A DNA stretch of 64,000 nucleotides, taken from contig CP089922.1 in NCBI GenBank assembly GCA_041879355.1, positions 462,172-526,171 of the forward strand, written 5' to 3'. Both the position numbers and the translations under genes were made by a program. Origin of the DNA: Cyanobacteria bacterium LVE1205-1 (lineage in GTDB: Bacteria; Cyanobacteriota; Cyanobacteriia; CAIUCS01). This document shows positions 5,620 to 51,786 of the stretch, piece by piece. A model generated the notes under the pieces. It made no database searches. It was not told where the DNA came from and saw only the letters and a program-made list of their open reading frames with translations. How positions within the stretch are numbered: position 1 is the stretch's first letter; every line of letters starts with the position of its first letter.

Positions 5620-6184
5620 AACCTCCCAGAGTTTCCCTATCCCTACTTATTAAGTATAAACCTAAGCCATTCCCGACTAAAAAAAGGGGGCTATATTCTG
5701 GCAGCCTAAACTAGGTCTGTTGAGCAACGAATTCGCCATGAATAGGATTACTTCATTCATGCTCCCTGATAAGGGGTGATTTGTTTGGTTCTTCCTAAGG
5801 AATACAAACCATACAATAGATGATTCGTAGCCCGATGCCAGAGGAGACAGTTTAATTCATGGTACAAAATAAATGAACTTCCGTTTGATTTGCTGTATAA
5901 AACTTTATTATAACGTGTTTATTATAAGCCGTATCCCAACGCCTTAAATTTTCAAACCATTACTCCGTCTAGTTTTAGCAAGGTTCCCTATGGCGATTAA
6001 ATTATTAAACGTTAATACTAACCGTCCATAACCGTTACACTCCCTCTGGTAAAGCGGGTTGCGGGCTATGCCCGATGGTTGTTTTCCCTTAGGGGAGAGT
6101 GAACAGTTGGATCCGTCTATTTCCCACCAGATTAAATTTGAACTGTTGTTTGGTACCCTCAAGGTGCCCTAACGACCAACAAGA

Positions 6185-7606: not shown

Positions 7607-7652
7607 ACTCCCTACCCAATCGTTCCCATGACTGACCCAACTTCACCGTCTA

Positions 7653-8282
7653 TTGTACACCCGCCCTCCCCCTCCCCATCCTCCTAAAGTCCACCAACAG
7701 GGAGAGGAAAGGTCTATCCCCCCGTGGCGATTTTTCATGCCCCTAGTACTTCAGAGTTTCTTAGTTTTGCTGATTCCGGTTCAAAATGCCTATACGGTGA
7801 CATTTGGGCGAACGGTCATTTTACAAACCGTACCCGTGGATCCCTATGATGTACTTAGGGGTTACTACCAGGTACTCAGTTACGATATTTCAATGGTGGA
7901 GCAATTACAGAAATTGCCTGGTGCTGGCTCCTGGCTGACAACACCTCGACCTAAACCAACGAACATCTATGTCATATTAGAAGAGGTTCCCACATCTATC
8001 CAACCACCCTATCCATGGAAGCCCATTGCCATCAGCCCGTCATACCCGGTTAACCTTGCGTTCAACCAGGTGGCTTTGGCGGGTTTTATCCAGGATGGGC
8101 AGGTAACCTATGGGGTGGAACAGTACTATATCCCCGCTGATCAACGGGACGAAATCAATAAAACCATCAATGATACCCAACAACGAAACCCCCAAGCTTT
8201 GGTGATGGAAGTCAAGGTGGATGGGAGGGGAAAGGGAGTCCCAGTTCGTTTATGGATTGGCGATCGCTACTATCAATTTTGA
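7653..8282 (+). CDS. GDYXXLXY-domain protein (alternative start at 7737)
   Basis: Motif PVDPYDVLRGYYQVLSY matches the GDYxxLxY signature; hydrophobic N-terminus from MPLVLQSFLVLL. Confidence 0.5.
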   Translation: MYTRPPPPHPPKVHQQGEERSIPPWRFFMPLVLQSFLVLLIPVQNAYTVTFGRTVILQTVPVDPYDVLRGYYQVLSYDISMVEQLQKLPGAGSWLTTPRPKPTNIYVILEEVPTSIQPPYPWKPIAISPSYPVNLAFNQVALAGFIQDGQVTYGVEQYYIPADQRDEINKTINDTQQRNPQALVMEVKVDGRGKGVPVRLWIGDRYYQF

Positions 8283-8434
8283 GGAAGGGGCTATTATTGG
8301 GGGTTGAACTGTATGCCCATTGCAACACCGGGATACTTTCGGATGGTTGACAATAGATTGCCCTCAACATAGTTGGGGAATAATTGACTTAAAATTAGAC
8401 TATTGTACGAATCAATTGTTATTTAGGTAAGCGG

Positions 8435-9411
8435 ATGGGAATTATCAACTGGCTGAGCAACCCGGTTCACACATTGCCAAAAGTGGGCTTTAGAGTCTTT
8501 TCGATTTCGTGTTTAGTGGCAGGGTGGAACGGGGTTCCATCCCTAGCAGAACCTCCCCATGCTTCTATTGTTAGCTCTGTCAGTCCAAACACCCCTTTAC
8601 CATTGGAGCCAACATCTGCCCAATCCAATGGAATGAATTCCTCTGTTAATGTCCAAGTCCTTAATTCTTTCTCGTTCCCCACCCATCTTACAGTTCCGTC
8701 TTTTGCTCAATCCTTGGAAACAACGCCTCAACATGGAGAGAAATCTGGGGTTTTCTCGGGCTTGAGTGACATCTCTGTAACCACCCTTCCCCTTCAACTA
8801 GCCCAGTCTAAAATTGACGTACCTGCCCAAGTGGTAGAACACAGTCCAGTGTTACAGCGTTGGCAGCAAAAAACACCCAATGTTTTAGAGGAGATTGACT
8901 GGGATCCGGCTTTTCGCCCTAGGGTCAGATTTGGTTATACTTATTTCCCCAATGCCCATGACCTAGATGGATGGTCCTTGGGCATTGAAGATGTTTTTAT
9001 TGCCCGTACTCCCTTAACGGTGAGTACCGATTACAACGAAACATTTGATGGACGCCAGACGGGGGGCGGGGTGGATTTAAGATACTATTTTCTACCGTTG
9101 GGATGGTATGGGAATGTAGCCCCCACCATTGGGTATCGCAGCATCAGTACCCCCACTTATTCCACCGAAGGACTGAATCTGGGTTTACGGTTTATGTTAG
9201 CCCTATCCCGGGAGGGGCTGCAGACCTATCTATTAGCCAAAACTGGGTAGGGGTTGCCACTGATAATGAGGTTGGTGTATTTACATTTTCAGTCGGATAT
9301 GCCCTCACCCGTCAAGTGAGACTTTCGGCAGATTTACAAGAACAAAGTTCTAAACTACGGCAGGATACTCGTCTGGGAATTATGGTGGAATGGCTACCTT
9401 CCTTAGACTAA
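8435..9411 (+). CDS. Hypothetical secreted protein; two ORFs (8435..9250, 9103..9411) probably joined by a frameshift
   Basis: Hydrophobic N-terminal signal-like segment, Ser/Thr/Pro-rich linker, second frame continues without intervening stop; no family recognised. Confidence 0.35.
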
Positions 9412-11327: not shown

Positions 11328-12823
11328 TCACTGGGATGAGGTGGGTAGCCAGGTTACAACAGTGGTGCCGGGAGCAGTGGAACAACAAAGTTTGCCGGGA
11401 CTAAAAACTTGTAACGTGCCCCCCATTCGGCTCAAGAGTTGGTGGGCGATCGCCATCCCTAAACCAGTACCTGGAATATTACCTTGAGACTGTATACCCC
11501 GATAATAGGGCTCAAATAAATGGGGGAGGTCTTCCGGTGGAATCCCAGGACCGGTATCACTAATGGCCACTGCCAGAAAGAGGGGACTATTTTTGCCAGA
11601 TAATCCATCAGGATGACCAGATGCAGATTGGATTTGGATTAGACCATTAGTGGGGGTATATTTTAAGGCATTTTCTATCAGATTGTTCAGTACCTCACCC
11701 AAGGCTTTACCATTTACCTGCACATCGGGCAAACCTTGGGACAGACCAATTTCTAAGGTTACCCCCCGTTCTTGGGCGATGGCACCGGCAGTCATCAACA
11801 GGGGAGATAACACACTATCTAGATTGATGGGCATCGTGGTCAGAGAATTTCCACTCAGCCAATCAGTCACTAAATCAGGATTTTCTTCTGACTGCTCCCG
11901 TTCAGGTGAGGATGGCAACGGGTCTAGAAAGTTGGAATAATTTTGGAGTGACGGATTGAGCCGCAATGAAGATTTGATATCCACTGCTTCTTTAGTGACA
12001 TGCTCAATTTGGGTCAGTAGTTCTTGCAAACGTTCACTTTCCCGTACAATACTTACTGCCACTTCCTGGTTGGGGTCATAACTCACCAATCGCTTCATCA
12101 ACAGCTTGCCAAAGGTGCGTAAAGCAGTGAGAGGATTCCGAAATTGATGTAACAAGGCATCCATTAAAAAACGATGGTGGCGTTCTTGTGACTGCCGTTG
12201 ATCTCGGATTTCCATGAGCCACTGGGTACGCTGTTCCAAAACATATCCAAGGGCTAAAGTACGGGCAATATGGTCTACTTCCTTCCGTTCAGTAGGGTTC
12301 CAGGGTCGGTCATTTCGGCAACAGACCAGTAGTCCTTTAGCGGCACCCTCGTGTACTAAAGGGAGTACGATCTGGTGGTCAGGATTCACTGATTCATTCA
12401 GGTACGTCAGAGTTGACCCAGAAAGGGGCTCCACTGAATCTATATAAACTGGTTGTTCAGAATCTAATGAGGAGCCTGATTCCGGGTTCACTGACTGTTC
12501 CCGGTTCCAGGCAGAGGTGGGTAAAATTGAATCCACTGCCCTTTGGAGGGAGACAGGGGAACTTCCCGATAATGAATGGGTGGACGGGGCAGGGGGAAGG
12601 GGACGGAAGACAGGGGAAGGTAAGTTGGGGGGATCCAAGGATGGGTCACTGACCACTCAACAGCAGATTCAGGATGGACGATCAATGGAATTAATTCGGT
12701 ATCCCCTCCATTGACAAGGTCTTTCGCTAAATAAACAATACTGAACGAAGCCCCCAATCCTTGAGCCAAGATAACTTGCGATCGGCATAGGGAAATAAAT
12801 TCCGGGCTGGGGGTCAGTAGCAT
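11328..12823 (-). CDS. Sensor histidine kinase; frameshift at G6 run near 12638
   Basis: H-box region HRFLMDALLHQFRNPLTAL, C-terminal HATPase with GTGLGMAI; upstream ORF 12488..12823 continues the N-terminus in another frame. Confidence 0.75.
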
Positions 12824-18561: not shown

Positions 18562-18634
18562 TGGAGGTTAGCGGACTCGAACCGCTGACATCCTGCTTGC
18601 AAAGCAGGCGCTCTACCAACTGAGCTAAACCCCC
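18562..18634 (-). tRNA. tRNA-Ala (anticodon TGC)
   Basis: Reverse complement folds as a 73-nt cloverleaf: acceptor GGGGGTT with G3:U70, D-arm AGCTCAGTTGGTAGAGC, anticodon loop TTTGCAA, T-arm GGTTCGAGTCC. Confidence 0.95.
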
Positions 18635-23508: not shown

Positions 23509-24362
23509 CTAAAATCCTAACGTTTCCGTTAAACCGGTTTCTAAAATAGTGTCTGAAAATTCATATAACGTTTTGTCAAAGATAGCTTTGAATATTGTCA
23601 CCGCCTGACCGGATACATAAATGCGTCCGTCCCCTTCCCTCACTCGCACAATTCCACCCCGGGCAGAAGCCTGATGGGCAACCAACTCTGACGTTCCCAG
23701 CCGACCAGCCCAGAATGGAGTCAGGCAGCAATGGGCAGCACCAGTCACCGGGTCCTCATTCACACCCAGAGATGGAGCAAAAAAACGGGACACAAAATCA
23801 AATCCTGGGGTAGAAGCGATGCTTGTCACAATAACCCCTTGGGGATGGAGTGGAGCCAGTAGACTAAAATTAGGCTGTAACTGCTTAACCATAGTCTCTG
23901 AATCAAGTTCAACCAGGTAGGCGAATGAACTTAATCCCACCCATCGGGGTTTAACCCCCAAAGCTGCCTCCAAACCATCTGGCACTGATACCGTCTGACA
24001 GGGAATGGGGGGAAATTAAGTTCGATCCAATCCCCATGCCGTTGGGCAGTTAACAATCCGCTACGGGTAAAGAAACGGGCGGTGGCAGTTGATGCCAAAT
24101 AACCTTCTGTCCATAAAACATGGGCACTTGCCAAGGTTGCATGACCACACAGGTCTACTTCGATTTTGGGAGTAAACCACCGTAAACTGAATCCATCTCC
24201 ATGGGGGAGTAAAAAAGCGGTTTCCGACAAATTCATTTCCCTAGCCACATGTTGCAGCCAGGCAGATGAACGCATTTCAGGCAAAATGCACACGGCGGCA
24301 GGATTTCCAGAAAAAGGGCGATTTGTAAATGCATCGACTTGGATTAACTGCCAATTCATCAT
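23509..24362 (-). CDS. PhzF-family (phenazine biosynthesis-like) isomerase; frameshift at G6 run near 24005
   Basis: N-terminus IQVDAFT...GNPAAV...ETAF typical of PhzF family; C-terminal half in second frame. Confidence 0.7.
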
Positions 24363-32709: not shown

Positions 32710-34378
32710 TCATCGCCAAAGGTCGGCTGCCTTAACCTGGGACATAGGACGTTTACCGGGGTTATAGTCTTTACCATAGTCATAGGGGTCAGGAACAAAG
32801 GGAGGCTCACCCAAATAATTTTCAATTGGCGGCGGAGAAAGGGTTTGCCATTCAGGAGAAATTGCATTCCAAGGGTTTGCTCCAGCCTTAGGACCCCTTA
32901 CCCAACTGTATACTGCATTAATAACAAATGGAATTGTTGAAACTGCCAAAAGGTAAGCACCAATGGAACAAATTAGATTAATTGCGGCAAATTGGGGGTC
33001 ATACTCCGCCACTCGACGAGGCATTCCAGCCAATCCCACCTTGTGCATTGGTAAAAAGCACAGGTTAAAACCAACTAAGGTTAAAACAAAATGCACCTTG
33101 CCCCACGTTTCATTGATCATACGACCCGTCATCTTGGGAAACCAGTGATAAATAGCTGCATAGAGACCAAAAACACTCCCCCAAAGAGGACGTAATGTAA
33201 ATGGGCAACTACGAAATAAGTATCATGGACATGAATATCAAAGGGAGCAGAGGCTAACATCACCCCACTTAATCCGCCAATGACAAACATGGAAACAAAT
33301 CCCATGGCAAATAACATCCCACTGTTAAGCCTCAGTTTGCCTCCCCACACCGTAGCCACCCAACTAAAGACTTTAATACCTGTGGGAACCGCAATCACCA
33401 TGGTGGCAACCATAAAAAACATTCGTAACCAACCGGGTACGCCGCTGGTAAACATATGATGAGCCCAAACGATTAAACCCAAGAAGCTAATTGCCAGACT
33501 GGAATAGGCGATCGCCTGATAGCCAAAAATTGGTTTTCGAGCATGAACGGGTAAGATTTCAGAGACCAACCCAAAAACTGGCAGAATCATAATGTATACC
33601 GCCGGGTGGGAGTAAAACCAGAACATATGTTGGTAAACAATTGGATCCCACCACCGGTTGGATTGAAAAAAGAAGTACCACCGATCAGGTCAAAGCATAG
33701 AAGGATTAGGGCTCCTGCTAAAACAGGAGTGGAAATCAGTACCAATGCAGAAGAGGATAACATTGCCCAACAAAAGAGGGGCATATTATTCAACCCAATT
33801 CCGGGTCTTCGCATCAGTAGAAGAGTGGTAATAAAGTTGACAGCTCCCAAAATGGAAGAAGTACCCAAAATTAATAAACTAAGAATCCAAATTAACTCTC
33901 CCCATTTACCATTCATGAGACTTAGAGGAGGATAGGATGTCCACCCAGATGCCGGGGCACCGACCAAAAAACTAGACATTAGTAAAATGCCACCAGGAGG
34001 AATTAACCAGAAGGCAATGGCATTTAAGCGGGGGAAAGCCATATCCCGTGCCCCAATCATTAATGGAAGGAGAAAATTACCAAACGCACCATTTGCCGCC
34101 GGTACAATCCATAGAAAGATCATGACCGTAGCATGCATGGTAAACAAACTATTGTATAGTTCACGGCTGACAAAATCCACTTCAGGGGTGGATAATTCCT
34201 TCCGAACTGCTGTAGCTAAAGCTCCACCAACGAGGTAGAACAAAAAAGATGTCACCAGATATTGAATACCAATCACCTTGTGGTCAGTATTGAATGTAAA
34301 GTAATCCCACCATTTTCGTTCCGTTAGCTCTGGAGATGGATTAACAGGGAGAATTCCGTCCAACTGGGCTGTAATCAT
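32710..34378 (-). CDS. ctaD: Cytochrome c oxidase subunit I; split into three ORFs by two apparent frameshifts
   Basis: ORFs 33587..34378, 33129..33626, 32710..33132 give a contiguous ~556-aa subunit I with His ligand regions (WAHHMF, HDTYFVVAHLHY). Confidence 0.9.
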
Positions 34379-38471: not shown

Positions 38472-40029
38472 TTAAAAGACTGGGGATTCTAGAGGCTCTA
38501 TTTCTTCATCCGTTTGTATCCTTGGCGGCGGAAAGTCTAGGGATCGTCCATAAATATCAGTGAAATACCGCAGGCGATGGCAAATTTCCTCACATTCTAC
38601 TGCCTCCGTGCGATATCGCCAATCCCAATTACCAGTGGCAGTCCCAGGGGTATTCATGCGTGCATCTGTCCCCAGTCCTAAAATGTCTTGAAATGGGAAT
38701 AAAGCCCAGTTGGCTACAGAACTCATGGCGTGACGGATCAAATCCCAATGAATACCATCGAAATTATTGTAACCTAAATAACTGCGGATATGGCGTTGTA
38801 AATCGTCGGATCGACTGTAAAACCAGCCCACAGTGGTGTCGTTATCATGGGTGCCTGTATAGACAATGGAGTTTTTCCGATACTGAAAGGTCAGATAGGG
38901 ATTTCGGGCATCTGAATCGAAGGCAAACTGCAAAATATTCATGCCGGGGAAATCAAAGCGATCGCGCAGGGCTTCCACCTCCGGGGTAATCACCCCTAAA
39001 TCTTCAGCCATAATGGGCAGGGAGCCTAGTTTTTGGGCTAAGGTTGTAAACAATTCCTCCCGGGAGCCTGCACCCATTCTCCATTTATAGCAGTGGTTTC
39101 CCCCTTTGGAACTGCCCAATAGGATTCAAAGCCACGAAAATGATCCACCCGGATCACATCTACAATCTCTAACATGGATTTAAACCGCTGTACCCACCAC
39201 TTAAATTGATTTTTTTTCAGATGCCTCCAGTTATAAACTGGATTGCCCCACAACTGTCCCGTTTTGCTGAAGTAATCAGGGGGAACACCTGCCATCAGCG
39301 CCACTTCTCCCGTTTTTTCATCCAAGTGAAAGTTTTCTGGATTTGCCCACACATCTGCACTATCGTGGGCTACATAAATGGGGATATCCCCAATAATGGT
39401 AATGCTTCGGTCATTGGCATAGGTTTTTAAGGCATTCCATTGACAATGGAATTGATATTGCAAAAATTGGTGATAAAAAATCTCATCAGTAAATTGTTTG
39501 CGGTATAAGGCTAAGGTTTCGGGTTTACGCTGCCGTAGATTTGGATCCCATTGATACCAGCTTTGATTAGGGTGAGCATACTTACACGCCATAAATAGGG
39601 CATAATCATCCAGCCAACTGGATTGATGGATGCAAAATTGTTCAAACTGTTTTTGAATTGCTGGGGTTGCCTGTTGCCGGAATCGGGCACATGCTAACCG
39701 AAATAACCCATCCTTAAAGGCAATCACCCCATCAAAATCAATATGATCCAGCGGAAAGTCAGGACTATTTGCCAGTTCAGATTTATCCAGCCATCCCTGC
39801 TCTTCCAATAATTCAGGACTAATGAGTAGGTGGTTACCGGCAAAGACGGAATAGGAAAGGTAGGGGAATTACCATATCCCGTAGGTCCTATGGGCAGGAT
39901 TTGCCAATAATGTTGATGACTGGACATCAAAAAATCAATGAACCGATAGGCAGATGAACCAAAATCTCCAATTCCATATGGACTGGGGAATGAACTGGGA
40001 TGGAGTAAAATTCCACTACCTCTGGGCAT
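38472..40029 (-). CDS. malQ: 4-alpha-glucanotransferase (disproportionating enzyme, GH77); split into three ORFs by apparent frameshifts
   Basis: ORFs 39724..40029 (GILLHPSS...GIGDFG), 39038..39808 (IIGDIPIYVAHDSADVW, VDHFRGF), 38472..39119 (EDLGVITPEV) are colinear. Confidence 0.85.
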
Positions 40030-41198: not shown

Positions 41199-42281
41199 TT
41201 AACCATGGATAGCAGGGGCAACCATTGCCACAGGCGCTACCTCACCCGCTGCCAAATCCAAGGGGAAATTGTGCGCATTCCGCTCATGCATCACTTCCAT
41301 CCCTAAATTCGCACGGTTGATAATATCCGCCCATGTATTAATCACACGACCCTGTGCATCAATCACTGATTGGTTAAAATTAAACCCATTCAAATTGAAT
41401 GCCATGGTACTCACTCCCAATGCAGTAAACCAAATCCCAATCACTGGCCACGCACCTAAGAAAAAGTGCAATGAACGTGAATTGTTGAAACTCGCATACT
41501 GGAAAATTAATCGTCCAAAATAACCATGGGCAGCAACTATGTTGTAAGTCTCTTCCTCTTGCCCAAACTTATATCCATAGTTCTGTGACTCACTCTCCGT
41601 CGTCTCACGCACTAACGATGATGTCACCAATGAACCATGCATCGCTGAAAATAAACTACCTCCAAATACACCCGCTACCCCTAACATGTGGAAAGGATGC
41701 ATCAATATGTTGTGCTCCGCCTGAAACACAATCATAAAATTAAATGTACCTGATATACCTAATGGCATCCCATCCGAAAACGAACCCTGTCCAATGGGAT
41801 AAATTAAAAATACAGCAGTCGCCGCTGATACTGGCGCACTGTACGCAACACATATCCATGGACGCATCCCTAACCGATAACTCAATTCCCATTGACGCCC
41901 TAAATAACAAAATACGCCAATTAAAAAATGAAAAATTACTAACTGGTACGGTCCACCATTGTATAACCACTCATCCAATGACGCAGCTTCCCAAATCGGA
42001 TAAAAATGCAACCCAATCGCATTACTAGATGGAACTACCGCACCAGATATAATATTGTTCCCATACAGTAAAGAACCCGCTACCGGTTCCCGTATACCAT
42101 CAATATCAACTGGCGGCGCAGCAATAAATGCAATAATGTAACAAACAGTCGCTGATAGCAAGGTAGGAATCATCAGTACCCCAAACCAACCTACATATAA
42201 TCGGTTGTTAGTACTGGTAATCCAGCTACAGAATTGCTCCCATGCGCTAGCGCTCTGGCGCTGTTGCAATGTCGTTGTCAT
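41199..42281 (-). CDS. psbA: Photosystem II D1 protein
   Basis: 360 aa; essentially full-length D1 including C-terminal processing extension. Confidence 0.97.
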
Positions 42282-42413
42282 GGTTTTATAAGTCCTAGTG
42301 GAAAATAAATATAATGTATTGGGCTACCATTCGGTCAACCACACCTCAATAATACCCACTATGTTAACTTTTGTAAAGAGGTTTGTTGCTTCCCGCTCAT
42401 TTTTTAGTAAGGG

Positions 42414-44270
42414 TTGGGAGATGAGATTAATTTTCTTTTTCCTTCAAGCCTAGTTCAACCTACATTCCCCCTATCCATGAATCCTACCGATAATTTAATT
42501 ATTGATGTCCAGGACTTATATGTGGAATTTCCACTGATAAATCATTCCATTCGAGCATTGAATGGCATATCATTTCAGGTGCAACGAGGGCAAACCTTGG
42601 GTTTGGTTGGTGAATCTGGTTCAGGTAAATCCGTGACATCGCTGGCAATTATGGGGTTGTTGCCTGTACCCGGTCGGATCACCAGTGGACATATTCGGTT
42701 TTATGGTGATGGACAAGGTAGGGGTGCAGTAGACTTTGCCAGTCTGACATCGAAGCAAATGCAACCATTCAGGGGTCGCCAAATCGCCATGATTTTTCAG
42801 GATCCCATGAGTTCATTAAACCCTGTATTTACCTGTGGATTTCAAATTAAAGAAGCAATTCGTGCCCATCAGAGGGTGACAGAAGCCATGGCTCAACAGC
42901 AAGCCATTGGTCTCCTTAAACGGGTGCGTCTATTGCCAGACCAACACCACCCCCAAGAAGAACGGGCGATGCTAAACCGTTATCCCCATCAATTATCCGG
43001 TGGACAGATCCAACGGATGATGATTGCCATGGCTCTTTCTTGCAATCCTGTTCTATTAATTGCTGATGAACCCACAACTGCACTGGATGTTACCGTCCAG
43101 GCAGAAATATTAGAACTACTCCGCCAGCTGTGTACTGACTTACAGATGGCTATGATTTTTGTTAGTCATGATCTGGATGTGGTAGCTGGGATTGCCGACC
43201 GGGTCGCCGTAATGTATCAGGGGAAAATTGTAGAACAGGGAACCATTCCAGAACTATTTGTCCATCCCCATCATCCTTACACGAAGGGATTACTCACCTG
43301 CCGCCCACCCATTGATCACCATCCAGAACGCCTGTTGACAGTGGCTGATTACATGGAGGTGGTGGAGATGCCTGAAGGGGAATTGATGATCACTGCCAAA
43401 CAACCGGCTGTACCCAAAGAGGTGGATTTAGAAACCATAACTGCCCGTTTACAATGGTTAACGCACCAGTCTCCCCTCTTATCCGTGTATGGCTTAAGTG
43501 CATCTTTCCCCAGTAGTGTGGGGCTGGGGCGCAGCCAGCGACCGGTGAAGGTGGTGGATGATGTGACCTTCGCCGTTTATCCTGGAGAAACTTTGGGGTT
43601 GGTGGGGGAATCAGGTTGCGGAAAGACGACCTTAGCTCGGGTAATATTACGGTTGGTGGAAGCATCTGCTGGGCAGATATTTTTTGATGGACTTGATGTG
43701 CGCCGGTTGAAGGGAAATGGGCTGCACCAGTTTCGCCGTGAAGCCCAACTCATTTTCCAAAATCCATTTAGCTCCTTAGACCCCCGGATGTCTGTGGGAG
43801 AGGCAGTGATGGAACCTTGGGTTATTCATCAGCCAAGGAAGGGGAAGCAGGATCGTCGCGATGGCGCAGTTTATTTACTGGAAAAGGTTGGACTAGGACC
43901 CAGTGCCCTCAATCGTTACCCCCATCAATTTTCCGGTGGACAGCGGCAGCGTATTTGTATTGCTCGTGCCCTAGCCCTGAATCCAAGGTTGATCATTTGT
44001 GATGAGTCGGTGTCTGCTTTGGATGTATCAGTTCAGGCACAAGTCTTAAATTTATTAAAAAGTCTCCAGGTGGAATTTCAACTGACAACCATTTTTATTT
44101 CCCATGACTTAAGTGTAGTAAAGTTCATGAGCGATCGCATTATGGTTATGAACCGGGGCAGAATTGAAGAGATTGGACCTGCCGAACACATTTATGGTAA
44201 CCCTCAACGGGACTATACCCAAAAGTTGATTGCCGCCATCCCACCATCAACCTATGGGAAAACAGCTTGA
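42414..44270 (+). CDS. ABC transporter ATP-binding protein with duplicated ATPase domains (peptide/nickel DppD-DppF fusion type)
   Basis: Two Walker A ([16 protein letters not shown]), two signature LSGGQ and Walker B motifs; start may be Met at 42477. Confidence 0.85.
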
Positions 44271-44327
44271 CAGAATTACTCCACAAATTTTCTATCCCTA
44301 GCGGTGAAAACTGTTGTAATACTCAGT

Positions 44328-45172
44328 TTAATCCTCCTTTAGGTAGCGTGGACGTTCTTTTTGAGTTTTTTGTAACTCCTGTGCCAGCTTGTCCCAGTGA
44401 GATTGCTCAATTTGGTCAATGAATCGATCTAATGTTTGTCGATACTGATGGAGCGATCGCAGTAAACAGGATTGATTATACTGAGCCATCATGGTTCCTA
44501 ATTCTGGATTTCCTCCCCCCACCCGACTGGTGTCGCGGAAGCCACTGCTGGATAACTGTTGGGATATTTGTTTGACAGTGGTATTATCCTCTTCCAGGCA
44601 GGCGGCAATTAGGCTGGCACTAACAATAACCGGGAGATGGGAAATCCACGCTACACTGCGGTCATGGTTACTAGGACTGCAATGGTATAAACGGGCATTT
44701 AATGAATGGACTAGTTTCTCTACCCTGGCTAATGCTTGGGGAGACGTGTTATCTACGGGAGTGAGGACATAGGGGCGATTGGCAAATAAACCGGGAGTTG
44801 CGGCACTGATGCCGTCTGTGGTTTTACCAGCCATGGGATGCCCTCCAATAAACTGTTTCCACAAAGGGCTAATTGCTTCAACAATAGGTTCTTTAACGGA
44901 ACCAACATCAGTTAAAATAGTATCAGGTTGTAAGTATGGAATTAACTGTTGTACGGTTGGTACAATTGCAGCGATGGGGTGCAGAGAAAAATCACCTCCG
45001 TATCTTTCAACAACGATAGGTGGATGCTGGCGTGATCAACTATTCCCATTGCGATTGCTTGATCGCCAGTTTCGGGTTGACGGCTGACTCCCTTAACGGT
45101 ATGCCCTAGGGTTCGTAGGTCAAATCCCAGTGAGCCACCAATCAAACCTAAGCCAACAATTCCAATCTCCAT
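44328..45172 (-). CDS. tyrA: Arogenate/prephenate dehydrogenase TyrA; frameshift between 44864 and 44942
   Basis: N-terminal Rossmann IGIVGLGLIGGSLG in ORF 44942..45172; C-terminal MAGKTTDGI...HDRSVAWISHLP in ORF 44328..44864. Confidence 0.8.
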
Positions 45173-45272
45173 CCTTGGGTCTCCATTCCAATACTTGTTT
45201 ATCTTTCAAAATTGTGAAAACTCATCCGCTTTGGTTGCATACTGAGTGCCCAATCATAACGCAGTAGAAACC

Positions 45273-46973
45273 ATGGAGCTTTCCTCTGAACCCATTCAGA
45301 ATTCTAGTCTACCCCAAGAGCATCACCCCCCCGACCACGGGATGATGGGGGCGGGGATGACGATACTCACTGGAACGCCCCCATAGGTGAAATCTTAGCT
45401 TGGATCAGTCACGAGTTTAAACCCCCTCACTGCTATCCTCGGATTATCGAGCTTATTAAAAGAACAAGATTTAGGGGAACTAAGCGATCGCCAGCTTCAT
45501 TATATTAATTTAATTCATCAGAGTGGAAGTCATTTAATTCTGTTGTTAAATGAAATACTCTTATTCACTCAACTTCAATCTGGTTCGGTGGAACTCTATC
45601 CCACGAAAGTAGACGTTGAACGAACTTGTCAATATACGTTTGACAGTGCCAGGGAGTTATTCCAAGCCAACCCCTCAACAAATCATTCAAACGTAGAAAT
45701 ATACTTTGATTCCCATTCAGTACAGGACAGTATTGATATTGATCCAGGTTTGGCATGGGTGATCACTGATGAATTACGTTTGCGCCAAATGTTGGTTTAT
45801 CTATTAACCACTGCTCTTAAATTAAGTGATTCCAGCATTGATATAAAACTCCAGGTCCACCAATGGGATCAGCATTGGATTGGATTCACTGTTTGTTATC
45901 GGGGAGTTTGTTTTCCCAGAGAAAAAAATGGGTTACCCCATCATTTTCCAGAATTTTCCCCTTCCTCCCCAAATCCATTTGAAGGGAGTTATTTAGGATT
46001 AGTATTGATGCAACGTTTAACCCATCTCCAAGGGGGAATGGTTACTGTTCGTTCAATTGGGGAACAAAGGAGTGAATGTACCCTATTGCTACCATGTAAA
46101 TACGAAACCCTGGGAGTTGGCATCCCCCATCTGGGTGGCGAAACGGTTACTTCATTAGTGGTGGTAGAGCCCACCAGTTATGAATTAATTTTACTGGCAC
46201 AAGACGATCCATGGATAATTGAGAGTTTGTCGGCACAATTACTTGAATTGGGATATCGGGTGGTAAATGGTTATACCTGCTCGGATGTGTTGCGCAAGGC
46301 TCGATTACTACAACCCAGAGCGATTTTACTCAGTGCATCGTTATGGGCTAACTCTCAGTTTTCCTTGTTTGATTTACTCCATGACTGTCCAGAAACTTGC
46401 CATATTCCCCTGGTGATGACTGTCCAGGAAACAGAACCATCAGCCTTCCCTAGGGAGGGGGAGAGGGAAATGATTCAATTACCCATATCGTTATCCAAAC
46501 TTGACGCAACAGTCCGAAAAAATTCTTCCATCGTTGTTGTATCGGAACAAATCTTACCCCCCAACCTGACCATATTACAGTTATTAGACAATCATCATCA
46601 GGGTGAACCCCAGTATGGTTTAGGATGGATTGGGAATTTATTTCATCAAAAGCACTATCGCTTAATCGAAGCGGAGGAATTGGAACAGGCTAATTTATTA
46701 GCACGAATTTGGAAGCCAGATTTGTTATTACTAACCACTTGGGATAAGCGGGAAGGTTTTTGGCAATTCTTTGAGTTTCTCCAGGATTATGATGGGCTCT
46801 CTCCATTACCATTGGTAATTCTTAATCATTGTTCCCATAGGATAAATCCCGTCCAGGGGCTATCCCTATTGATTTGCCCCATTAGTCATCTAGACAGGAC
46901 AGAAGACTATTGGATCCATCCTGATGCCTTGAATTTATGCAAAACTTTGCGACGGGCTGTTACTTCCCATTAA
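45273..46973 (+). CDS. Histidine-kinase-like protein with degenerate ATP-binding motifs and two pseudo-receiver domains; two frameshifts at C7 (about 45322) and C5 (about 45420) runs
   Basis: After frame correction the H-box reads ISHEFKPPLTAILG; N-box Asn replaced (YLLTTALK), G1 reads YRGVCF, G2 reads GSYLGLVL; two receiver-like segments lack the phospho-acceptor Asp. Confidence 0.55.
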
Positions 46974-46996
46974 ATTCTTCATTTCGGTCAATCATA

Positions 46997-47467
46997 ATGA
47001 AACCCACAGCCAATATTTTTACCAAGGGAAGTACCACCCAAATTTCGGTTGCAGTGGCAATTCTTGTTCAGAAAGGACAGTATCTTTTACAATTACGAGA
47101 CGAGATTCCCACCATTGTTTATCCGGGGGTTTGGGGATTATTTGGTGGGCATTTGGAAAATGGGGAAACACCAGAAGCCGGAATTGAACGGGAATTATGG
47201 GAGGAAATTGGATATTGTCCATCTGACTTAACGTTATTTGGTTGTTATGGAGATATTAGGGTTCTCCGGTACGTATTTTATGGATGTCTTGATGTACCCT
47301 TGATGGCGTTATCCCTACAGGAAGGCTGGGATATGCAGTTGTGGGGTGTTGATGAGATTTTTAAAGGGGAACGTTTATCGGACTGTTCTGGTGATTGCCG
47401 TCCCATTGCCCAACCCCATCGAACTATATTAAACGATTTCTTAAGGATTTATCCCCAGAATTGCTGA
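46997..47467 (+). CDS. NUDIX hydrolase
   Basis: Nudix box GGHLENGETPEAGIERELWEEIG; start placed at Met 46997. Confidence 0.8.
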   Translation: MKPTANIFTKGSTTQISVAVAILVQKGQYLLQLRDEIPTIVYPGVWGLFGGHLENGETPEAGIERELWEEIGYCPSDLTLFGCYGDIRVLRYVFYGCLDVPLMALSLQEGWDMQLWGVDEIFKGERLSDCSGDCRPIAQPHRTILNDFLRIYPQNC

Positions 47468-49135
47468 CCTTAAATCATAGGTTGAAAAGCGACGAACGAG
47501 GAATAATGGCATTGTGTCCTTACTGATGTATTGGGCATAGGATGATTGCAAAAAAGGGAGATAGGCAATTTGACGATGAATGTGAACTTGGAAAAAAGCA
47601 AGGCTTAGGGCACTTAAATACCGTTGAGCGACGAATGGCTCTGTACCCACGATTCCACTAGGCAAAGTAACCGTGGAACTGTTAGGGGAGTCCCCTAAAA
47701 AAGAGAAATGGGTGCCACGGGGAGCGATCGCCAGATAACGATTGGGTGTTGTCAGCCAGGTGAAGGGTTCTATTTGTTCCAACAGGGCTGGGGTTGTGGA
47801 ATCATTTCCCCCACCTATTATCATGACGGGTATATTGATGTTGCCCAAACCCTTTGATCCCAGTACACTCCGATTCACTGGATTAATGGCAATAACAGCT
47901 CTCACTCTGGGGTCACCATAGGAATTATCGTGAGGGGGTAAGGATAAAACAATACATTGGAGTAACAGGGAAACATTCCACGGATTCATAACTGATTGAC
48001 AATCCTTACGGAGTTGGGGAAAATTAAGAGTTCCCCCAGCCAAGGTGAGGGCGGTATAACCCCCAAAAGACTGACCAATAACTCCCACCTCCTTTAAGTT
48101 AACATTAGCCCTAGGGATGGGATTGGCTTTCAACCACTGTTCCATTTGATTGAGTAGAAATGTTATGTCTAAGGGGCGATCAATAAACTCCTTGGGTGAA
48201 CTTACCTCAGCGGTGCGTCCAGCCATGAATGCCTTAAATTGGGTACTACTACTGCCTGGATGTTCCGGTATGGCAACTACAAACCCATAGGAAGCCAAGT
48301 GCTCTGCTAAATAGGCAAAGGTTGACTGGCTAGAACCAAAACCATGGGAGATCACTACGACTGGGAGGGTTGTGGTTCCATTGATAAAGTTAGAAGGGAT
48401 ATTGGGTAAGTAAAGTCGGGCTGAATAATTGCGACTACGACTAGTATCGTTTAAAGCCAGATAGTTAACTTGCCAGGTAAACTTTCCCCGTAATTGGAGA
48501 TCCGGTAATTGGCTGTAGTTAATGGGCAAATCTTCTATCATTTCCTGACGGGCTTGACGGTCTAAACTATCAATGGCTAACCTGGATTGATTCAGTAGTC
48601 GGGTCAGTTCATCGGCGACGGCAAAAACCCGAGCCAAGTCAATGCGAATCCCTTGGGTTGGGAACTTGTGTAATACATTCAGTAATGTTAAACCCTCCCG
48701 GTCATTTGTCCCTAAAATCATGGAAGCCCGGATAGCATTAAACCCACTTTGTCCTGAAGGAAGTTGAATGATATTCCCTAGCCATTGGAGTAACGTTTCT
48801 CCTTGGGGGGAGTATAAAAATTGGGCTACTGCAACTCTACCCAAATCAATCCGAGTGGTTAATATCCGTTGGAATTGTTCTCGCTGCCAGGGTTGCAATA
48901 GCCTCGCATAGTCACTTAAATCCCCTTGAATAATGCCTTCTCGAGCAAAAATTTCAATATCGGCTACTTTCACTGAACCTTGGAGTGCCCCATAGGTCAA
49001 AACGATTTGTTCGGCACAGTTGGCGGGCATGGTGATTAGAACAGTGGGTAAGAACCCTAACAATACATACCTCAACCAGGGCATGGTTCGCCCCTTGGGC
49101 TGTCGCTGCCGGAGTCTTGAAAGAGATTGAACCAT
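47441..49135 (-). CDS. Alpha/beta hydrolase with N-terminal DUF1400-like domain and signal peptide
   Basis: VVVISHGFGSS and nucleophile motif GQSFGGYT; N-terminal hydrophobic signal. Confidence 0.65.
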   Translation of the reverse strand: MVQSLSRLRQRQPKGRTMPWLRYVLLGFLPTVLITMPANCAEQIVLTYGALQGSVKVADIEIFAREGIIQGDLSDYARLLQPWQREQFQRILTTRIDLGRVAVAQFLYSPQGETLLQWLGNIIQLPSGQSGFNAIRASMILGTNDREGLTLLNVLHKFPTQGIRIDLARVFAVADELTRLLNQSRLAIDSLDRQARQEMIEDLPINYSQLPDLQLRGKFTWQVNYLALNDTSRSRNYSARLYLPNIPSNFINGTTTLPVVVISHGFGSSQSTFAYLAEHLASYGFVVAIPEHPGSSSTQFKAFMAGRTAEVSSPKEFIDRPLDITFLLNQMEQWLKANPIPRANVNLKEVGVIGQSFGGYTALTLAGGTLNFPQLRKDCQSVMNPWNVSLLLQCIVLSLPPHDNSYGDPRVRAVIAINPVNRSVLGSKGLGNINIPVMIIGGGNDSTTPALLEQIEPFTWLTTPNRYLAIAPRGTHFSFLGDSPNSSTVTLPSGIVGTEPFVAQRYLSALSLAFFQVHIHRQIAYLPFLQSSYAQYISKDTMPLFLVRRFSTYDLRSAILGINP

Positions 49136-49212
49136 AGGATTAAGAAGAGATTAAGGTAAGGATTACATTTTCTAAATCAAGGTATAAACTACAGCAATCG
49201 TCTTCTTTCCAT

Positions 49213-50723
49213 CTAGAACCGCTTCACCATGGATAATGCAGCTCGTGCTTGCTCTCGGTCATCAAAGTGAATTTTTTCAATCCCCAAGATTTGATAGTCT
49301 TCGTGACCTTTACCCGCAATGAGAACTCCGTCCCCTGGCTTGGCATTCACTATGGCGGTGTGAATGGCGGCAGCCCGATCGGGAATCACTTGCACAGATT
49401 GAGGAGTGAGGGGGGAATTCCAGTCATAATATCTGTCAGGATGGAATTGGGGTCTTCTGTTCGGGGATTATCTGAAGTGATGATGACTTGATCGGCTAGT
49501 TGGGCTGCAATAGTACCCATTAGAGGACGTTTGGTTCGATCCCGATCGCCTCCACAACCAAATACACAAATCATCTGACCTGGAATAAACGGACGGGCTG
49601 CCCGTAGTAGGTTTTCAAGGCTGTCAGGGGTGTGGGCATAATCCACAATTACACTGATGTCTTGGGATGGAGAGGTCACGATCTGTTCCATTCGTCCAGG
49701 TACTCCAGGGAAGGATGATAAATGGGTGATCATTGTCCCTAAATCAAGCCCTAAATGAATCCCGGTGGCGATCGCAGCTAATACGTTGGATAAATTGTAC
49801 TCTCCCACTAAGGGAGAGAAGAAATCAACTTCAGTGGAGGGTGTGGTTAATCGTCCTTTTACCCCATTGGTTCCATACACTAATTGATGGGTATATACAT
49901 CTGCTTGGGGGTTGTGGACGCTGTAGGTCAACAAAGAGTTTGTCGCTTTTGTTAACACCAACTGGTGAACCAATTGGACTCCGTAATTATCATCAATGTT
50001 GATGACGGCTGAACCCTTTAAGTAATCAGGACTAAACAACAAAGACTTGGCTGCATAGTAATTTTCCATAGTCCCATGATAGTCTAAATGATCTTGGGTT
50101 AAATTAGTGAACACACTTACAGCAAACTCACATCCCAATACCCGACTTTGGGCTAAGGCATGGGAACTTACTTCCATAATACAAAATTCACAGCCTGCTG
50201 CAACTGCACTGGCCAGGTGTGCTTGTAGTTGTATGGCAAAGGGAGTGGTGTGAATGGAGGTATGTTCATAGCCCTGCCATCGTGCATAAAGGGTGCCCAA
50301 AAGCCCGGTTGGTTTATGAACGCACTGAAGCAAATGTTCGATTAAATGGGTGGTAGTGGTTTTACCATTGGTTCCAGTCACCCCCACTAGCTTTAGTTGT
50401 CTTGCCGGATATTCATAAAAGGCTGCCGCAATGTGGGCACAGGTTGGTACCATCTCTTTACATGGAATCAGGCAGGCATGGTTGGGATTGGGGAGTGTGG
50501 CGGCATCCATGGTGACGATGGCAGCAATTGCCCCCAATTGAATCGCCTCCGACCAGAATTGACCACCATCTACCTTTGTTCCCGGCATTCCTAAGAATAG
50601 GTACCCTGGTTGGCAAGTATGGGAGTTGGTACTAAGTCCCGTTACATTTTGTTCTAGGGCATGATGATCAGGAATTGACGTTGCAAGGGAGGGAACTAGT
50701 GCCAGTAAATGTCTTAGTTTCAT
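49213..50723 (-). CDS. murE: UDP-N-acetylmuramoyl-L-alanyl-D-glutamate--2,6-diaminopimelate ligase MurE; frameshift at G6 run near 49410
   Basis: P-loop [15 protein letters not shown]; C-terminus AGKGHEDYQ in 60-aa ORF 49213..49395. Confidence 0.85.
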
Positions 50724-51011
50724 AGTCTTTCTCCAAAAAAACCTTCCGTTTGCGGTCAGGGAGGGATAGGAGCAATAATTAAGGGGAATGTACAGATGTA
50801 CAATAGTTTAGTACTTCCCAAAATATAACTTAAACCTTTAGGGATTGTCTAACGTTATAAAATTGACTGGAACCCCATCCCTTTTTTAGGTGTTATCCAT
50901 TGTAATTATGGATCTTCCCTGAAACAATAAGTGGACATCTCCCGCTTTTTTTAGACGGATGGTCACTAACTCCCTTTTGTTATAATTCAGTGATTTAATA
51001 AAGAACTTTAT

Positions 51012-51786
51012 ATGCTTGACTTGACTGGAAAAAATGCTTTGGTAACGGGAATTGCAAATAACCACTCCATTGCCTGGGGAATCGCTCAACAACTCCATAA
51101 AGCGGGGGCAAATTTGGGGGTCACCTATTTACCCGATGAACGGGGACGCTTTCGTCAAAAAGTGGCTGACTTGACTGCCCCCCTCAATCCATCTGTATTT
51201 ATGCCCTGTAATGTTCAGGATGATAGACAGGTTGCGGAGTTGTTTGGGGCGATCGGGAATCAATGGGGAAAATTGGATATTGTCATTCACTGTCTGGCTT
51301 TTGCCGATAAGGAAGGATTATCCGGGGACTTCAGCAGTGTATCACGGGAAAGTTTTATGAAATCCTTGGATATTAGTGCCTTTTCGTTGGTGCAGTTTGC
51401 ACAGGGTGCGAAACCTTTAATGCATGGTGGGGGTAGTATGGTCACCCTTAGTTATTTAGGAGGGGTGCGGGTCATTCCCAATTACAATACCATGGGCATT
51501 GCGAAAGCTGCTTTGGAAATGAATGTTAGGTATCTGGCTGCTGAATTGGGACCCCATAATATCCGTGTCAATGCCGTTTCTGCCGGTCCCATACGAACTC
51601 TGGCTTCTTCAGCGGTGGGGGGATTCTTGACATGATCCATCATGTTCAAACAACGGCTCCTCTCCGTCGTACCGTAACTCAACAGGAAGTGGGTAATGCG
51701 GCTGCATTTTTATGCAGTGATTTATCCAGTGGGATTACTGGTCAGGTATTATATGTGGATTCCGGTTATGGAATTATGGGGATGTA
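51012..51786 (+). CDS. fabI: Enoyl-[acyl-carrier-protein] reductase (NADH) FabI; frameshift at G6 run near 51622
   Basis: [20 protein letters not shown], catalytic Y..K region; C-terminus (...[14 protein letters not shown]) in next frame. Confidence 0.85.

What the first reader, a model, noticed from the sequence alone, without database searches (positions are those of the whole stretch)
45273..47467. Kinase-dead histidine-kinase-like protein with two pseudo-receiver domains, overlapping a NUDIX hydrolase gene
After correcting two homopolymer frameshifts the protein has a normal H-box (ISHEFKPPLTAILG), but the N-box Asn is replaced (YLLTTALK), G1 is degenerate (YRGVCF), and two receiver-like domains lack the phospho-acceptor Asp. 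The architecture loosely recalls CikA-type clock input proteins with pseudo-receivers but has no sensory domain. The 3' end overlaps the NUDIX gene by about 37 bp, which suggests co-expression.
Basis: partly seen in the sequence, partly recalled or inferred. Interest (0 to 1): 0.6.

Follow-up and report, generated by a model that had tools for sequence, protein, structure and literature searches.

The report
Kinase-dead relative of clock-linked kinases
This is a real cyanobacterial gene for a sensor-less histidine-kinase look-alike that has lost its ATP-binding residues and carries two dummy receiver domains; its frameshifts are assembly errors, and its nearest full-length relatives are encoded next to the circadian clock genes kaiABC.

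Summary
The gene at 45273..46973 is real. Its two frameshifts (C-run 45326-45332, A3C5 run 45419-45426) are homopolymer undercalls in this assembly. At least 10 independent assemblies of the same lineage encode an intact 565-576 aa protein. tyrA, murE, ctaD, malQ and a phzF-like gene in the window are broken the same way.

The corrected protein has a canonical H-box (ISHEFKTPLT). It has lost the N-box Asn (to Thr), the G1 Asp (to Tyr), the F-box and a G2 Gly (to Tyr). All of these are 98-100% conserved in 117 relatives. Two receiver folds follow, and both lack the acceptor Asp and the Lys. There is no sensor domain.

dN/dS against a 97.5%-identical strain is 0.26 (p=6e-7), so this is a maintained pseudokinase and not a pseudogene.

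The NUDIX overlap is not supported: every annotation starts NUDIX at 46997, 23 nt after the kinase stop.

The protein is a truncated, fast-evolving offshoot of a widespread cyanobacterial hybrid-kinase family. In 67 of 72 species with enough flanking DNA, that family lies divergently next to kaiA-kaiB-kaiC. The window has no kai genes.

The most likely role is a RetS/DivL-like signalling modulator. It is a new variant of a known kind, of moderate interest.

The parts
45273..46973 (+). Pseudo-histidine-kinase gene. The corrected product is 567 aa. Some annotations start at GTG 45246, giving 574-576 aa. In this assembly the gene is broken into ORFs 45246..45386 and 45543..46973 (the latter is XGB39798.1, LVT47_02545).
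45326..45332 (+). Frameshift site 1. A C7 run with one base missing; the closest intact strains read EHHPPRPRDD, which implies C8.
45419..45426 (+). Frameshift site 2, inside the H-box. The window has A3C5 where the intact orthologous contig has A4C6, so two bases are missing. Restoring them gives HEFKTPLT.
45374..45581 (+). DHp (HisKA) helical hairpin, residues 35-104. The phospho-acceptor His47 codon is at 45410-45412. The adjoining E-x-x-T phosphatase-type motif (HEFKT) is kept. The upstream signalling coiled coil of the family is absent.
45603..46094 (+). Degenerate CA (HATPase_c) domain, residues 112-275. N-box T181 is at 45810-45812 (family N). G1 CYRGVCF is at 45894-45914 (family WDTGIGI). 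G2 GSYLGL is at 45984-46001 (family GxGLGL). The F-box is lost.
46185..46547 (+). Pseudo-receiver 1, residues 306-426, with a (beta-alpha)5 fold. The acceptor position is Ser (ILLSASL), the acidic-pocket Glu is replaced by Gln, and the Lys is replaced by Leu.
46569..46967 (+). Pseudo-receiver 2, residues 434-566. The acceptor position is Thr (LLLLTTW) and there is no Lys. The family signature on beta2-alpha2 is retained (RLIEAEELEQANLLARIW).
46997..47467 (+). NUDIX hydrolase gene (156 aa, XGB39799.1). The Nudix box is intact (GGHLENGETPEAGIERELWEEIGY). It starts 23 nt after the kinase stop and does not overlap it.
45173..45272 (.). A 100-nt divergent intergenic region between tyrA (minus strand, start at 45172) and the pseudokinase gene. 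It leaves no room for a lost N-terminal sensor exon.

Best explanation
The gene encodes a maintained, soluble, sensor-less pseudo-histidine kinase. It has a DHp dimerisation hairpin that keeps the phosphorylatable His and the HE-x-x-T phosphatase-type motif. It has a folded CA domain that can no longer bind or use ATP. It has two pseudo-receiver domains that cannot be phosphorylated.

It most likely does not autophosphorylate. It most likely acts as a modulator of another two-component pathway, either by DHp-mediated dephosphorylation or phosphate-siphoning of a response regulator, or by forming inhibitory or scaffolding hetero-complexes with a catalytically active kinase (RetS/DivL-like). The pseudo-receivers would serve as protein-interaction or regulatory modules.

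Shown here by computation: the gene is intact in nature, it is under purifying selection, the domain folds are present, and the specific catalytic residues are lost. Inferred: no ATP binding, dimerisation, and phosphatase or partner-kinase modulation.

The frameshifts in the window are homopolymer errors of this assembly.
For: - Intact orthologues of 565-576 aa occur in at least 10 independent assemblies. Only the LVE1205-1 assembly is truncated.
- 7 of the 9 window-versus-L001 indels are homopolymer-length differences, and the window has the shorter run in 6 of them. They also break tyrA and murE. ctaD, malQ and a phzF-like gene elsewhere in the window are split too.
- dN/dS is 0.26 for the whole gene (31 synonymous and 29 non-synonymous changes; p=6e-7 against neutrality). 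The CA domain gives p=0.018 and the receiver-like domains p=4.5e-5. Neighbouring genes give 0.15-0.34.
- N181, D210, G214, the F-box, G241 and G267 are 98-100% conserved in 117 relatives and are all replaced here. H47, E48, P52, L53 and T54 are kept.
- The HATPase_c Pfam score drops from 83-97 bits in relatives to 34 bits, but stays above the cutoff.
- The AF2 model (pLDDT 78.9) shows DHp, CA and two receiver folds.
- The best structural matches are full-length ShkA, which a review describes as carrying a pseudo-receiver and a true receiver, and the RetS kinase region (TM 0.77).
- RetS has lost ATP binding and inhibits GacS through DHp contacts and phosphate siphoning (PMC8498467). DivL works without its ATPase domain or its phospho-residue (PMC9491836).
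Against: - There is no biochemical evidence.
- No partner kinase or response regulator was identified. None is encoded within about 10 kb, and no conserved regulator gene lies downstream in the parent family.
- I could not establish whether the genome holds a full-length paralogue to pair with.
- Retention of His47 could equally reflect phosphorylation in trans.
- The selection test rests on one pairwise comparison with 60 substitutions.
- Thr at the N-box position and a retained GxxxG remnant do not strictly exclude weak nucleotide binding.
Confidence: 0.5

Rival explanations
1. Clock-associated adaptor. The protein keeps the function of its kaiABC-linked parent family in a kinase-independent form. 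For example, its conserved pseudo-receiver 2 surface might dock on KaiB/KaiC as the CikA pseudo-receiver does, and it might act as a phosphatase or adaptor in clock output.
For: - The parent family is an immediate divergent neighbour of kaiA in 67 of 72 loci with enough flank, across Oscillatoriales, Nostocales, Leptolyngbya, Chroococcales and symbionts.
- The best-retained family-specific motif in the window protein lies on beta2-alpha2 of pseudo-receiver 2.
- The CikA pseudo-receiver binds KaiB through its alpha1-beta2-alpha2 surface (PMC12632262).
Against: - The window has no kai gene within 64 kb.
- The closest subfamily member, P0003, is also not next to kaiA.
- The fold search of pseudo-receiver 2 shows ordinary receivers (DivK, KdpE) on top. 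No CikA or KaiA pseudo-receiver entry appears among the top 50 hits.
- No experimental link between the parent family and the clock was found in the literature searched.
Confidence: 0.2
2. Phosphotransfer subunit. His47 is phosphorylated in trans by the CA domain of a related active kinase in a heterodimer, and then passes the phosphate to a regulator. The protein would be a substrate or relay rather than an inhibitor.
For: - The His and the surrounding H-box are strictly kept while the CA motifs are lost.
- Trans-autophosphorylation is documented for GacS-type kinases (PMC8498467).
Against: - No partner was identified.
- DHp keeps only 32 of 48 family-conserved positions, so pairing with a canonical family member is uncertain.
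Confidence: 0.15
3. Decaying pseudogene. The gene is a relic of a hybrid kinase that lost its sensor, its catalytic residues and, in this genome, its reading frame.
For: - There are two frameshifts in the window.
- Only 103 of 188 family-conserved positions are kept, against 155 in the nearest full-length relatives. The protein sits on a long branch.
Against: - The reading frame is intact in every other assembly of the lineage.
- Selection is purifying: dN/dS 0.26, p=6e-7.
- All four domains are confidently folded in the model.
- The same kind of frameshift hits tyrA, murE and ctaD in this assembly, genes I would expect such a cell to need intact.
Confidence: 0.05
4. Still an active kinase that uses an unconventional nucleotide pocket.
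For: The CA fold and the Pfam HATPase_c match are retained (34 bits, above the 26.4 cutoff). The His is retained.
Against: The Mg-ATP-ligating Asn, the adenine-binding Asp of G1, the F-box and a G2 glycine are all replaced. The lid is predicted with low confidence. By established knowledge of GHKL ATPases, loss of the N-box Asn or the G1 Asp abolishes activity.
Confidence: 0.07

Closest known systems
kaiABC-adjacent cyanobacterial hybrid histidine kinases. I found no description of this family. Sources annotate members as 'ATP-binding response regulator' or 'hybrid sensor histidine kinase/response regulator'; examples are P0019 and P0093.
   Same: - Homologous over 88-95% of the length (33-46% identity, E about 1e-75 to 1e-110).
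- Same order of domains: DHp, CA, receiver-like 1, receiver-like 2.
- Same signature motif in pseudo-receiver 2.
- Receiver-like domains without the catalytic Lys.

   Different: - Lacks the roughly 350-aa CBS-like/PAS-like sensor region and the coiled coil.
- Lacks the third receiver-like domain.
- Has lost the N, G1, F and G2 motifs.
- Has lost the LNPLLPxLSGWDVL signature of receiver-like domain 1.
- Is not next to kaiABC.
- Forms a separate clade with P0002 and P0003, on a longer branch.

RetS (Pseudomonas aeruginosa)
   Same: - A HisKA-type kinase region that no longer binds ATP, followed by two tandem receiver domains.
- The kinase region is among the best structural matches (TM 0.77, 24-28% identity).
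- It works by DHp contacts and phosphate siphoning rather than by autophosphorylation.

   Different: - RetS has a periplasmic sensor domain and, from my own recollection, a seven-helix membrane region. This protein has no sensor and looks soluble.
- The second RetS receiver is phosphorylatable; both here lack the Asp.
- No GacS-like partner is known here.
DivL (Caulobacter crescentus)
   Same: A histidine-kinase fold used as a non-catalytic signalling modulator.
   Different: - DivL, as I recall it, lost the His (it is Tyr) and keeps a CA domain that is dispensable. Here the His is kept and the ATP pocket is lost.
- DivL has PAS sensor domains and no receiver domains.
ShkA (Caulobacter crescentus)
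   Same: It is the top full-length structural match (6qrj, E 5e-19). It is a soluble hybrid kinase with a pseudo-receiver and a true receiver.
   Different: ShkA is an active kinase whose pseudo-receiver binds c-di-GMP, and its second receiver has the Asp (PMC12632262).
CikA (Synechococcus elongatus clock input/output kinase)
   Same: A cyanobacterial HisKA kinase with a C-terminal pseudo-receiver. The parent family of the window protein is genomically tied to kaiABC.
   Different: CikA has a GAF domain, a single pseudo-receiver and an active kinase. No CikA-specific sequence or structural similarity was detected.
HrmK (Nostoc punctiforme hybrid kinase; NCBIfam NF038297)
   Same: It is the best NCBIfam model for both the window-type protein and the full-length family.
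   Different: The scores are 124 and 283 bits against a cutoff of 725, so neither is a member.

Membership tests
Catalytically competent HisKA-type histidine kinase | H-box with a phosphorylatable His in a DHp hairpin (Pfam HisKA above the gathering score) | tested here: met
   HisKA scores 47-53 bits (cutoff 26.9). ISHEFKTPLT is conserved in all cluster members.
Catalytically competent HisKA-type histidine kinase | N-box Asn that ligates Mg-ATP | tested here: not met
   Thr181 replaces an Asn that is present in 100% of 117 relatives.
Catalytically competent HisKA-type histidine kinase | G1 box DxGxG | tested here: not met
   YRGVC replaces DTGIG. The D is 99% conserved and the second G is 99% conserved.
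Catalytically competent HisKA-type histidine kinase | F-box and G2 box GxGxG of the ATP lid | tested here: not met
   HHFPEFS replaces FQKFQQLE, with one residue deleted. GSYLGL replaces GxGLGL. The lid has pLDDT 54-59.
Catalytically competent HisKA-type histidine kinase | ATP-dependent autophosphorylation | not testable with these tools
   This needs purified protein.
kaiABC-adjacent cyanobacterial hybrid kinase family | Full-length homology across DHp, CA, receiver-like 1 and receiver-like 2, with the [ED]QA[EDN]xL[AS]xxW signature | tested here: met
   Query coverage is 88-95%. All top hits in two protein libraries belong to this family. The motif EQANLLARIW is kept.
kaiABC-adjacent cyanobacterial hybrid kinase family | N-terminal CBS-like/PAS-like sensor region and a third receiver-like domain | tested here: not met
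   The protein starts 12 residues into DHp helix 1 and ends after receiver-like domain 2.
kaiABC-adjacent cyanobacterial hybrid kinase family | Divergent adjacency to kaiA-kaiB-kaiC | tested here: not met
   There is no kai homologue in the 64-kb window at tblastn E<=1e-5. The neighbours are tyrA and NUDIX.
Canonical receiver (REC) domain | (beta-alpha)5 flavodoxin-like fold | tested here: met
   AF2 secondary-structure order for both domains. Foldseek of domain 2 hits DivK and KdpE receivers at E 1e-5 to 1e-4. Domain 1 is homologous to a 51-54-bit Response_reg match in full-length relatives.
Canonical receiver (REC) domain | Phospho-acceptor Asp at the end of beta3, the acidic pair after beta1, and Lys at the end of beta5 | tested here: not met
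   Domain 1 has Ser, Ala/Gln and Leu at these positions. Domain 2 has Thr, no acidic pair and no Lys. Both are therefore pseudo-receivers.
CikA | GAF domain N-terminal to the kinase core and a single C-terminal pseudo-receiver | tested here: not met
   There is no GAF hit in the window protein or in full-length relatives, and there are two to three receiver-like domains.
CikA | Pseudo-receiver binds fold-switched KaiB | not testable with these tools
   This needs a complex prediction or a binding assay.
RetS-type pseudokinase | Kinase region unable to bind ATP plus tandem receivers | tested here: inconclusive
   The motif loss and the structural similarity fit. ATP binding itself was not measured.
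RetS-type pseudokinase | Periplasmic sensor domain (and, as I recall, a membrane-spanning region) and a GacS partner | tested here: not met
   No sensor domain was found. The N-terminus is a 34-residue disordered tail. A partner could not be tested.
NUDIX hydrolase (neighbouring gene) | Nudix box Gx5Ex7REUxEExGU and a Pfam NUDIX match | tested here: met
   PF00293 scores 55 bits. The box GGHLENGETPEAGIERELWEEIGY can be read directly from the sequence.

The most novel reading that the evidence does not exclude
The window protein is a kinase-independent remnant of an apparently undescribed circadian-clock accessory kinase family. That family is the hybrid kinase encoded divergently from kaiA in most filamentous and many unicellular cyanobacteria. 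On this reading the protein still plugs into Kai-dependent signalling through its conserved second pseudo-receiver and its DHp phosphatase surface. It would then be a natural 'separation-of-function' allele showing which activities of the family do not need ATP.
Probability: 0.2. Interest if true: 0.65.

Novelty: new variant of a known kind. Interest (0 to 1): 0.4.

Why it matters
Bacterial histidine pseudokinases are known (RetS, DivL, evolved ChrS) but few have been described. This one is a clean natural case. It has lost the sensor, the coiled coil and every ATP-contacting motif, yet it keeps the phospho-His, the phosphatase-type motif and two pseudo-receivers under purifying selection. The larger point is a by-product of the analysis. 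Its parent family is a widespread hybrid kinase, apparently uncharacterised, that sits divergently next to kaiABC in 67 of 72 sampled species. If that family is a clock input or output component, it would add a player to the cyanobacterial clock outside the Synechococcus elongatus model. The window protein would then show which of its functions are ATP-independent. There is also a practical lesson: this assembly carries frequent homopolymer deletions, so any 'pseudogene' in it needs checking against short-read assemblies.

Tried and rejected
- A scan of GTDB species genomes with exact peptides of the intact orthologue found no relative. The lineage appears absent or masked there, so I could not read the rest of the genome to look for kai genes or a full-length paralogue.
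- The context look-up for P0019 found nothing on record.
- Literature searches for a kaiA-adjacent hybrid kinase, for all2883, for kaiABC gene neighbourhood and for the genome name LVE1205 found nothing describing the family or the organism.
- CikA-like or KaiA-like similarity of the pseudo-receivers was rejected. PDB sequence searches and Foldseek of pseudo-receiver 2 return ordinary receivers, with DivK, PleD and KdpE on top.
- HrmK membership was rejected: 124 and 283 bits against a cutoff of 725.
- A conserved partner regulator downstream of family members was looked for and not found. Only membrane proteins recur, in about half of the loci.
- NUDIX co-occurrence is absent from all 82 other family loci.
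- The substitution pattern in the 60-nt candidate overlap region is uninformative, because there are no differences between the two strains.
- Programmed frameshifting was rejected, because the orthologues are simply in frame.
- The promoter and terminator scan gave nothing above the shuffled expectation.
Full report
**What is in the sequence**

ORF listing and three-frame translation show a + strand gene from ATG 45273 to the stop at 46971-46973. It is interrupted twice.
- The frame changes from 0 to 2 at a C7 run (45326-45332).
- It changes back to 0 at an A3C5 run (45419-45426), inside the H-box.
- The longest uninterrupted piece, 45543..46973 (476 aa), is identical to XGB39798.1. That record is 'hypothetical protein LVT47_02545' of Cyanobacteria bacterium LVE1205-1, on a 3,276,681-bp contig. 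The window therefore comes from that assembly.

**Are the frameshifts real?**

A JGI metagenome contig (L001, 9403 bp) is 97.5% identical to window 42262..51654 and fully syntenic (ABC ATPase, tyrA, kinase, NUDIX, DUF1400 hydrolase, murE).
- It carries an uninterrupted 567-aa gene (P0001, 94% identical).
- The DNA alignment shows nine indels. Seven are homopolymer-length differences, and the window has the shorter run in six of them.
- Besides the two in the kinase gene, such indels break tyrA (44975), murE (49413) and the next gene (51616).
- Elsewhere in the window, ctaD is split into three ORFs that cover consecutive parts of the COX1 profile. malQ and a phzF-like gene are split in two.
- Fourteen other members of the 90% cluster, from NCBI, JGI, ENA and Logan assemblies, are 94-97% identical to the window protein. 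The full-length ones are 565-576 aa.

I conclude that the frameshifts are homopolymer undercalls of this assembly. The corrected H-box is ISHEFKTPLTAILG.

**Is the degeneracy real?**

I aligned the protein with 117 full-length relatives.
- It keeps the H-box (H47, E48, P52, L53, T54).
- It replaces the N-box Asn (100% conserved) with Thr.
- It replaces the G1 Asp (99%) with Tyr and the second G1 Gly with Cys.
- It has lost the F-box (FQKFQQLE becomes HHFPEFS, with a deletion).
- It changes G2 from GxGLGL to GSYLGL, and a lid Gly to Arg.
- Overall it keeps 103 of 188 positions that are at least 90% conserved. The nearest full-length relatives, P0002 and P0003, keep 155.
- By domain it keeps DHp 32/48, CA 39/70, receiver-like 1 16/38 and receiver-like 2 15/22.
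- The degenerate motifs are identical in all cluster members that cover them.
- Pfam still recognises HisKA (47 bits) and HATPase_c (34 bits, against 83-97 in relatives). It does not recognise Response_reg.

**Structure**

An AF2 model of the intact orthologue (pLDDT 78.9, pTM 0.68) has these parts:
- a disordered tail (residues 1-34);
- a DHp hairpin (35-104);
- an alpha/beta CA domain (112-275) with a low-confidence lid;
- two (beta-alpha)5 domains (306-426 and 434-566).

Foldseek puts full-length ShkA first. It then lists the RetS kinase region (TM 0.77), GacS, HK853 and DivL. A separate model of the second C-terminal domain, built from the window sequence (pLDDT 81.7), matches ordinary receivers such as DivK and KdpE. 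No CikA or KaiA pseudo-receiver entry is among its top 50 hits.

At the canonical receiver positions, domain 1 has Ser for the acceptor Asp, Gln for the acidic residue and Leu for the Lys. Domain 2 has Thr and no Lys. Both are pseudo-receivers. This is largely a family trait: 97% of relatives have Asn at the acceptor site of domain 1 (LNPLLP), and none has the Lys.

**Is it a pseudogene?**

Against L001 the gene has 31 synonymous and 29 non-synonymous differences.
- dN/dS is 0.26, within the range of its neighbours (0.15-0.34).
- The excess of synonymous changes is significant for the whole gene (p=6e-7), for the CA domain (p=0.018) and for the receiver-like domains (p=4.5e-5).

Together with the confident folds and the intact frame in other assemblies, this argues for a maintained protein.

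**What family is it?**

- The word-indexed search and the exhaustive HMMER search of 1.84 billion representatives give the same picture. The nearest relatives are P0002 and P0003 (44-46% identity, 866-884 aa). After them come several hundred cyanobacterial proteins of 700-1270 aa at 33-42% identity. There are 344 representatives at E<=1e-30.
- These relatives have an N-terminal CBS-like region, a conserved LPLPLMLQ...QN..W segment, a coiled coil, a canonical kinase core and two or three receiver-like domains.
- The best NCBIfam model is HrmK, far below its cutoff.
- A neighbour-joining tree puts the window type together with P0002 and P0003 in their own clade, with the window type on the longest branch.
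- MurE of this lineage is only 66% identical to any other cyanobacterial MurE, so the organism is an isolated lineage.

**The unexpected context**

The first full-length relative whose neighbourhood I fetched lies divergently next to kaiA-kaiB-kaiC. I then fetched 80 loci from GTDB species genomes using family-specific peptide patterns and searched them with KaiA, KaiB and KaiC.
- 68 of the 82 loci searched carry kai genes.
- 67 of the 72 loci that have enough upstream DNA carry kaiA, and it is on the opposite strand in every case.
- The 5' end of the KaiA match lies a median 747 nt from the first ATG of the kinase ORF.
- The species span Microcoleus, Nostoc/Anabaena, Fischerella, Leptolyngbya, Coleofasciculus, Chroococcus, Spirulina, the Rhopalodia endosymbiont and Paraprochloron.
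- My literature searches found no description of this gene family or of this linkage.

The window itself has no kai gene. P0003 is also not next to kaiA. The linkage therefore belongs to the sister clade, not to the window gene.

**NUDIX**

The ORF can be extended to ATG 46937, which would overlap the kinase by 37 nt.
- The exact 156-aa product from ATG 46997 is what NCBI (XGB39799.1), JGI and Logan carry for this assembly. 14 of the 16 members of its cluster are also 156 aa (one is a 127-aa partial and one is 162 aa). The 176-aa form is not in the collection.
- The Pfam NUDIX domain begins at residue 15 of the short form.
- The 60 nt in question do not differ between the two strains, so substitution patterns cannot decide.
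- The gap is 23 nt with no predicted terminator, so co-transcription remains plausible.
- The kinase-NUDIX adjacency occurs only within this one lineage and in none of 82 other family loci.

**Mechanism**

From established knowledge of GHKL ATPases, the N-box Asn and the G1 Asp are needed for Mg-ATP binding. Losing both, together with the F and G2 elements, predicts no autokinase activity. What is kept is the DHp hairpin with the His and the E-x-x-T motif, which in HisKA kinases supports phosphatase activity, and the beta2-alpha2 signature of pseudo-receiver 2.

The best-supported reading is a non-catalytic or phosphatase-only modulator of another two-component pathway. Two precedents support it.
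- RetS has lost ATP binding, carries two receivers, and inhibits GacS through DHp contacts and phosphate siphoning (PMC8498467).
- DivL works without its ATPase domain or its phospho-residue (PMC9491836).

A clock-adaptor role is the most interesting alternative. It rests on the family's kaiABC linkage and on the fact that CikA's pseudo-receiver binds KaiB through its alpha1-beta2-alpha2 surface (PMC12632262). It has no direct support for this protein.

**Verdict**

The frameshifts are artefacts and the overlap claim is not supported. The gene is a lineage-specific pseudokinase variant of a hybrid kinase family whose other branch is genomically tied to the circadian clock.

Noticed in passing
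L003 5009-8883; L005-L084 (the kinase match is typically at 10001 onward, with kaiA about 7400-8700 on the opposite strand): The full-length relatives of the window protein (700-1270 aa; CBS-like/PAS-like region, kinase core, 2-3 receiver-like domains) are immediate divergent neighbours of kaiA-kaiB-kaiC in 67 of 72 species loci with enough flank. I found no paper describing this family or this linkage.
   Followed up: partly
window 44328-45172 (-), break near 44975: tyrA (prephenate/arogenate dehydrogenase) is split into 76-aa and 178-aa ORFs by a missing G in a G5 run. It is intact (281 aa) on the orthologous contig L001.
   Followed up: yes
window 49213-50723 (-), break near 49413; also 51616: murE is split (445 + 60 aa) by a 1-nt deletion. 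It is intact (503 aa) on L001. The next gene (enoyl-ACP reductase-like, 51012-51635) is cut by a G7-to-G6 contraction.
   Followed up: yes
window 32710-34378 (-); 38472-39808 (-); 23509-24362 (-): ctaD (COX1) is split into three ORFs covering profile positions 2-199, 205-368 and 370-436. malQ (GH77) and a phzF-like gene are each split in two. The assembly has frequent frame-breaking indels: at least 10 in 64 kb.
   Followed up: partly
window 47441-47467: The NUDIX gene (+, ends 47467) and the convergent DUF1400/PAF-acetylhydrolase-like hydrolase gene (-, 47441..49135) overlap by 27 nt at their 3' ends. The same overlap is present on L001 (4740-5210 against 5184-6830).
   Followed up: no
window 48368: There is a 3-nt in-frame indel (a GTT repeat unit) in the DUF1400 hydrolase gene relative to L001. 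It is probably a real strain difference rather than an error.
   Followed up: no
window 11328-12656 (-): A second, canonical histidine kinase (GAF + HisKA + HATPase_c, 442 aa, HATPase_c 80 bits). It resembles the Hik2/CSK type by architecture and has no adjacent response regulator.
   Followed up: no
window 18562-18634 (-): A lone tRNA-Ala(TGC), the only Rfam or ARAGORN hit in the window. It is not flanked by rRNA genes.
   Followed up: no
L017, L023, L028, L033, L039: Five family loci (a Microcoleus MAG, Lyngbya PCC 8106, an Oscillatoriales MAG, Limnoraphis and Planktothrix) have 9-10 kb of upstream DNA but no kai genes. The linkage has been lost, or these are paralogues, in some clades.
   Followed up: no
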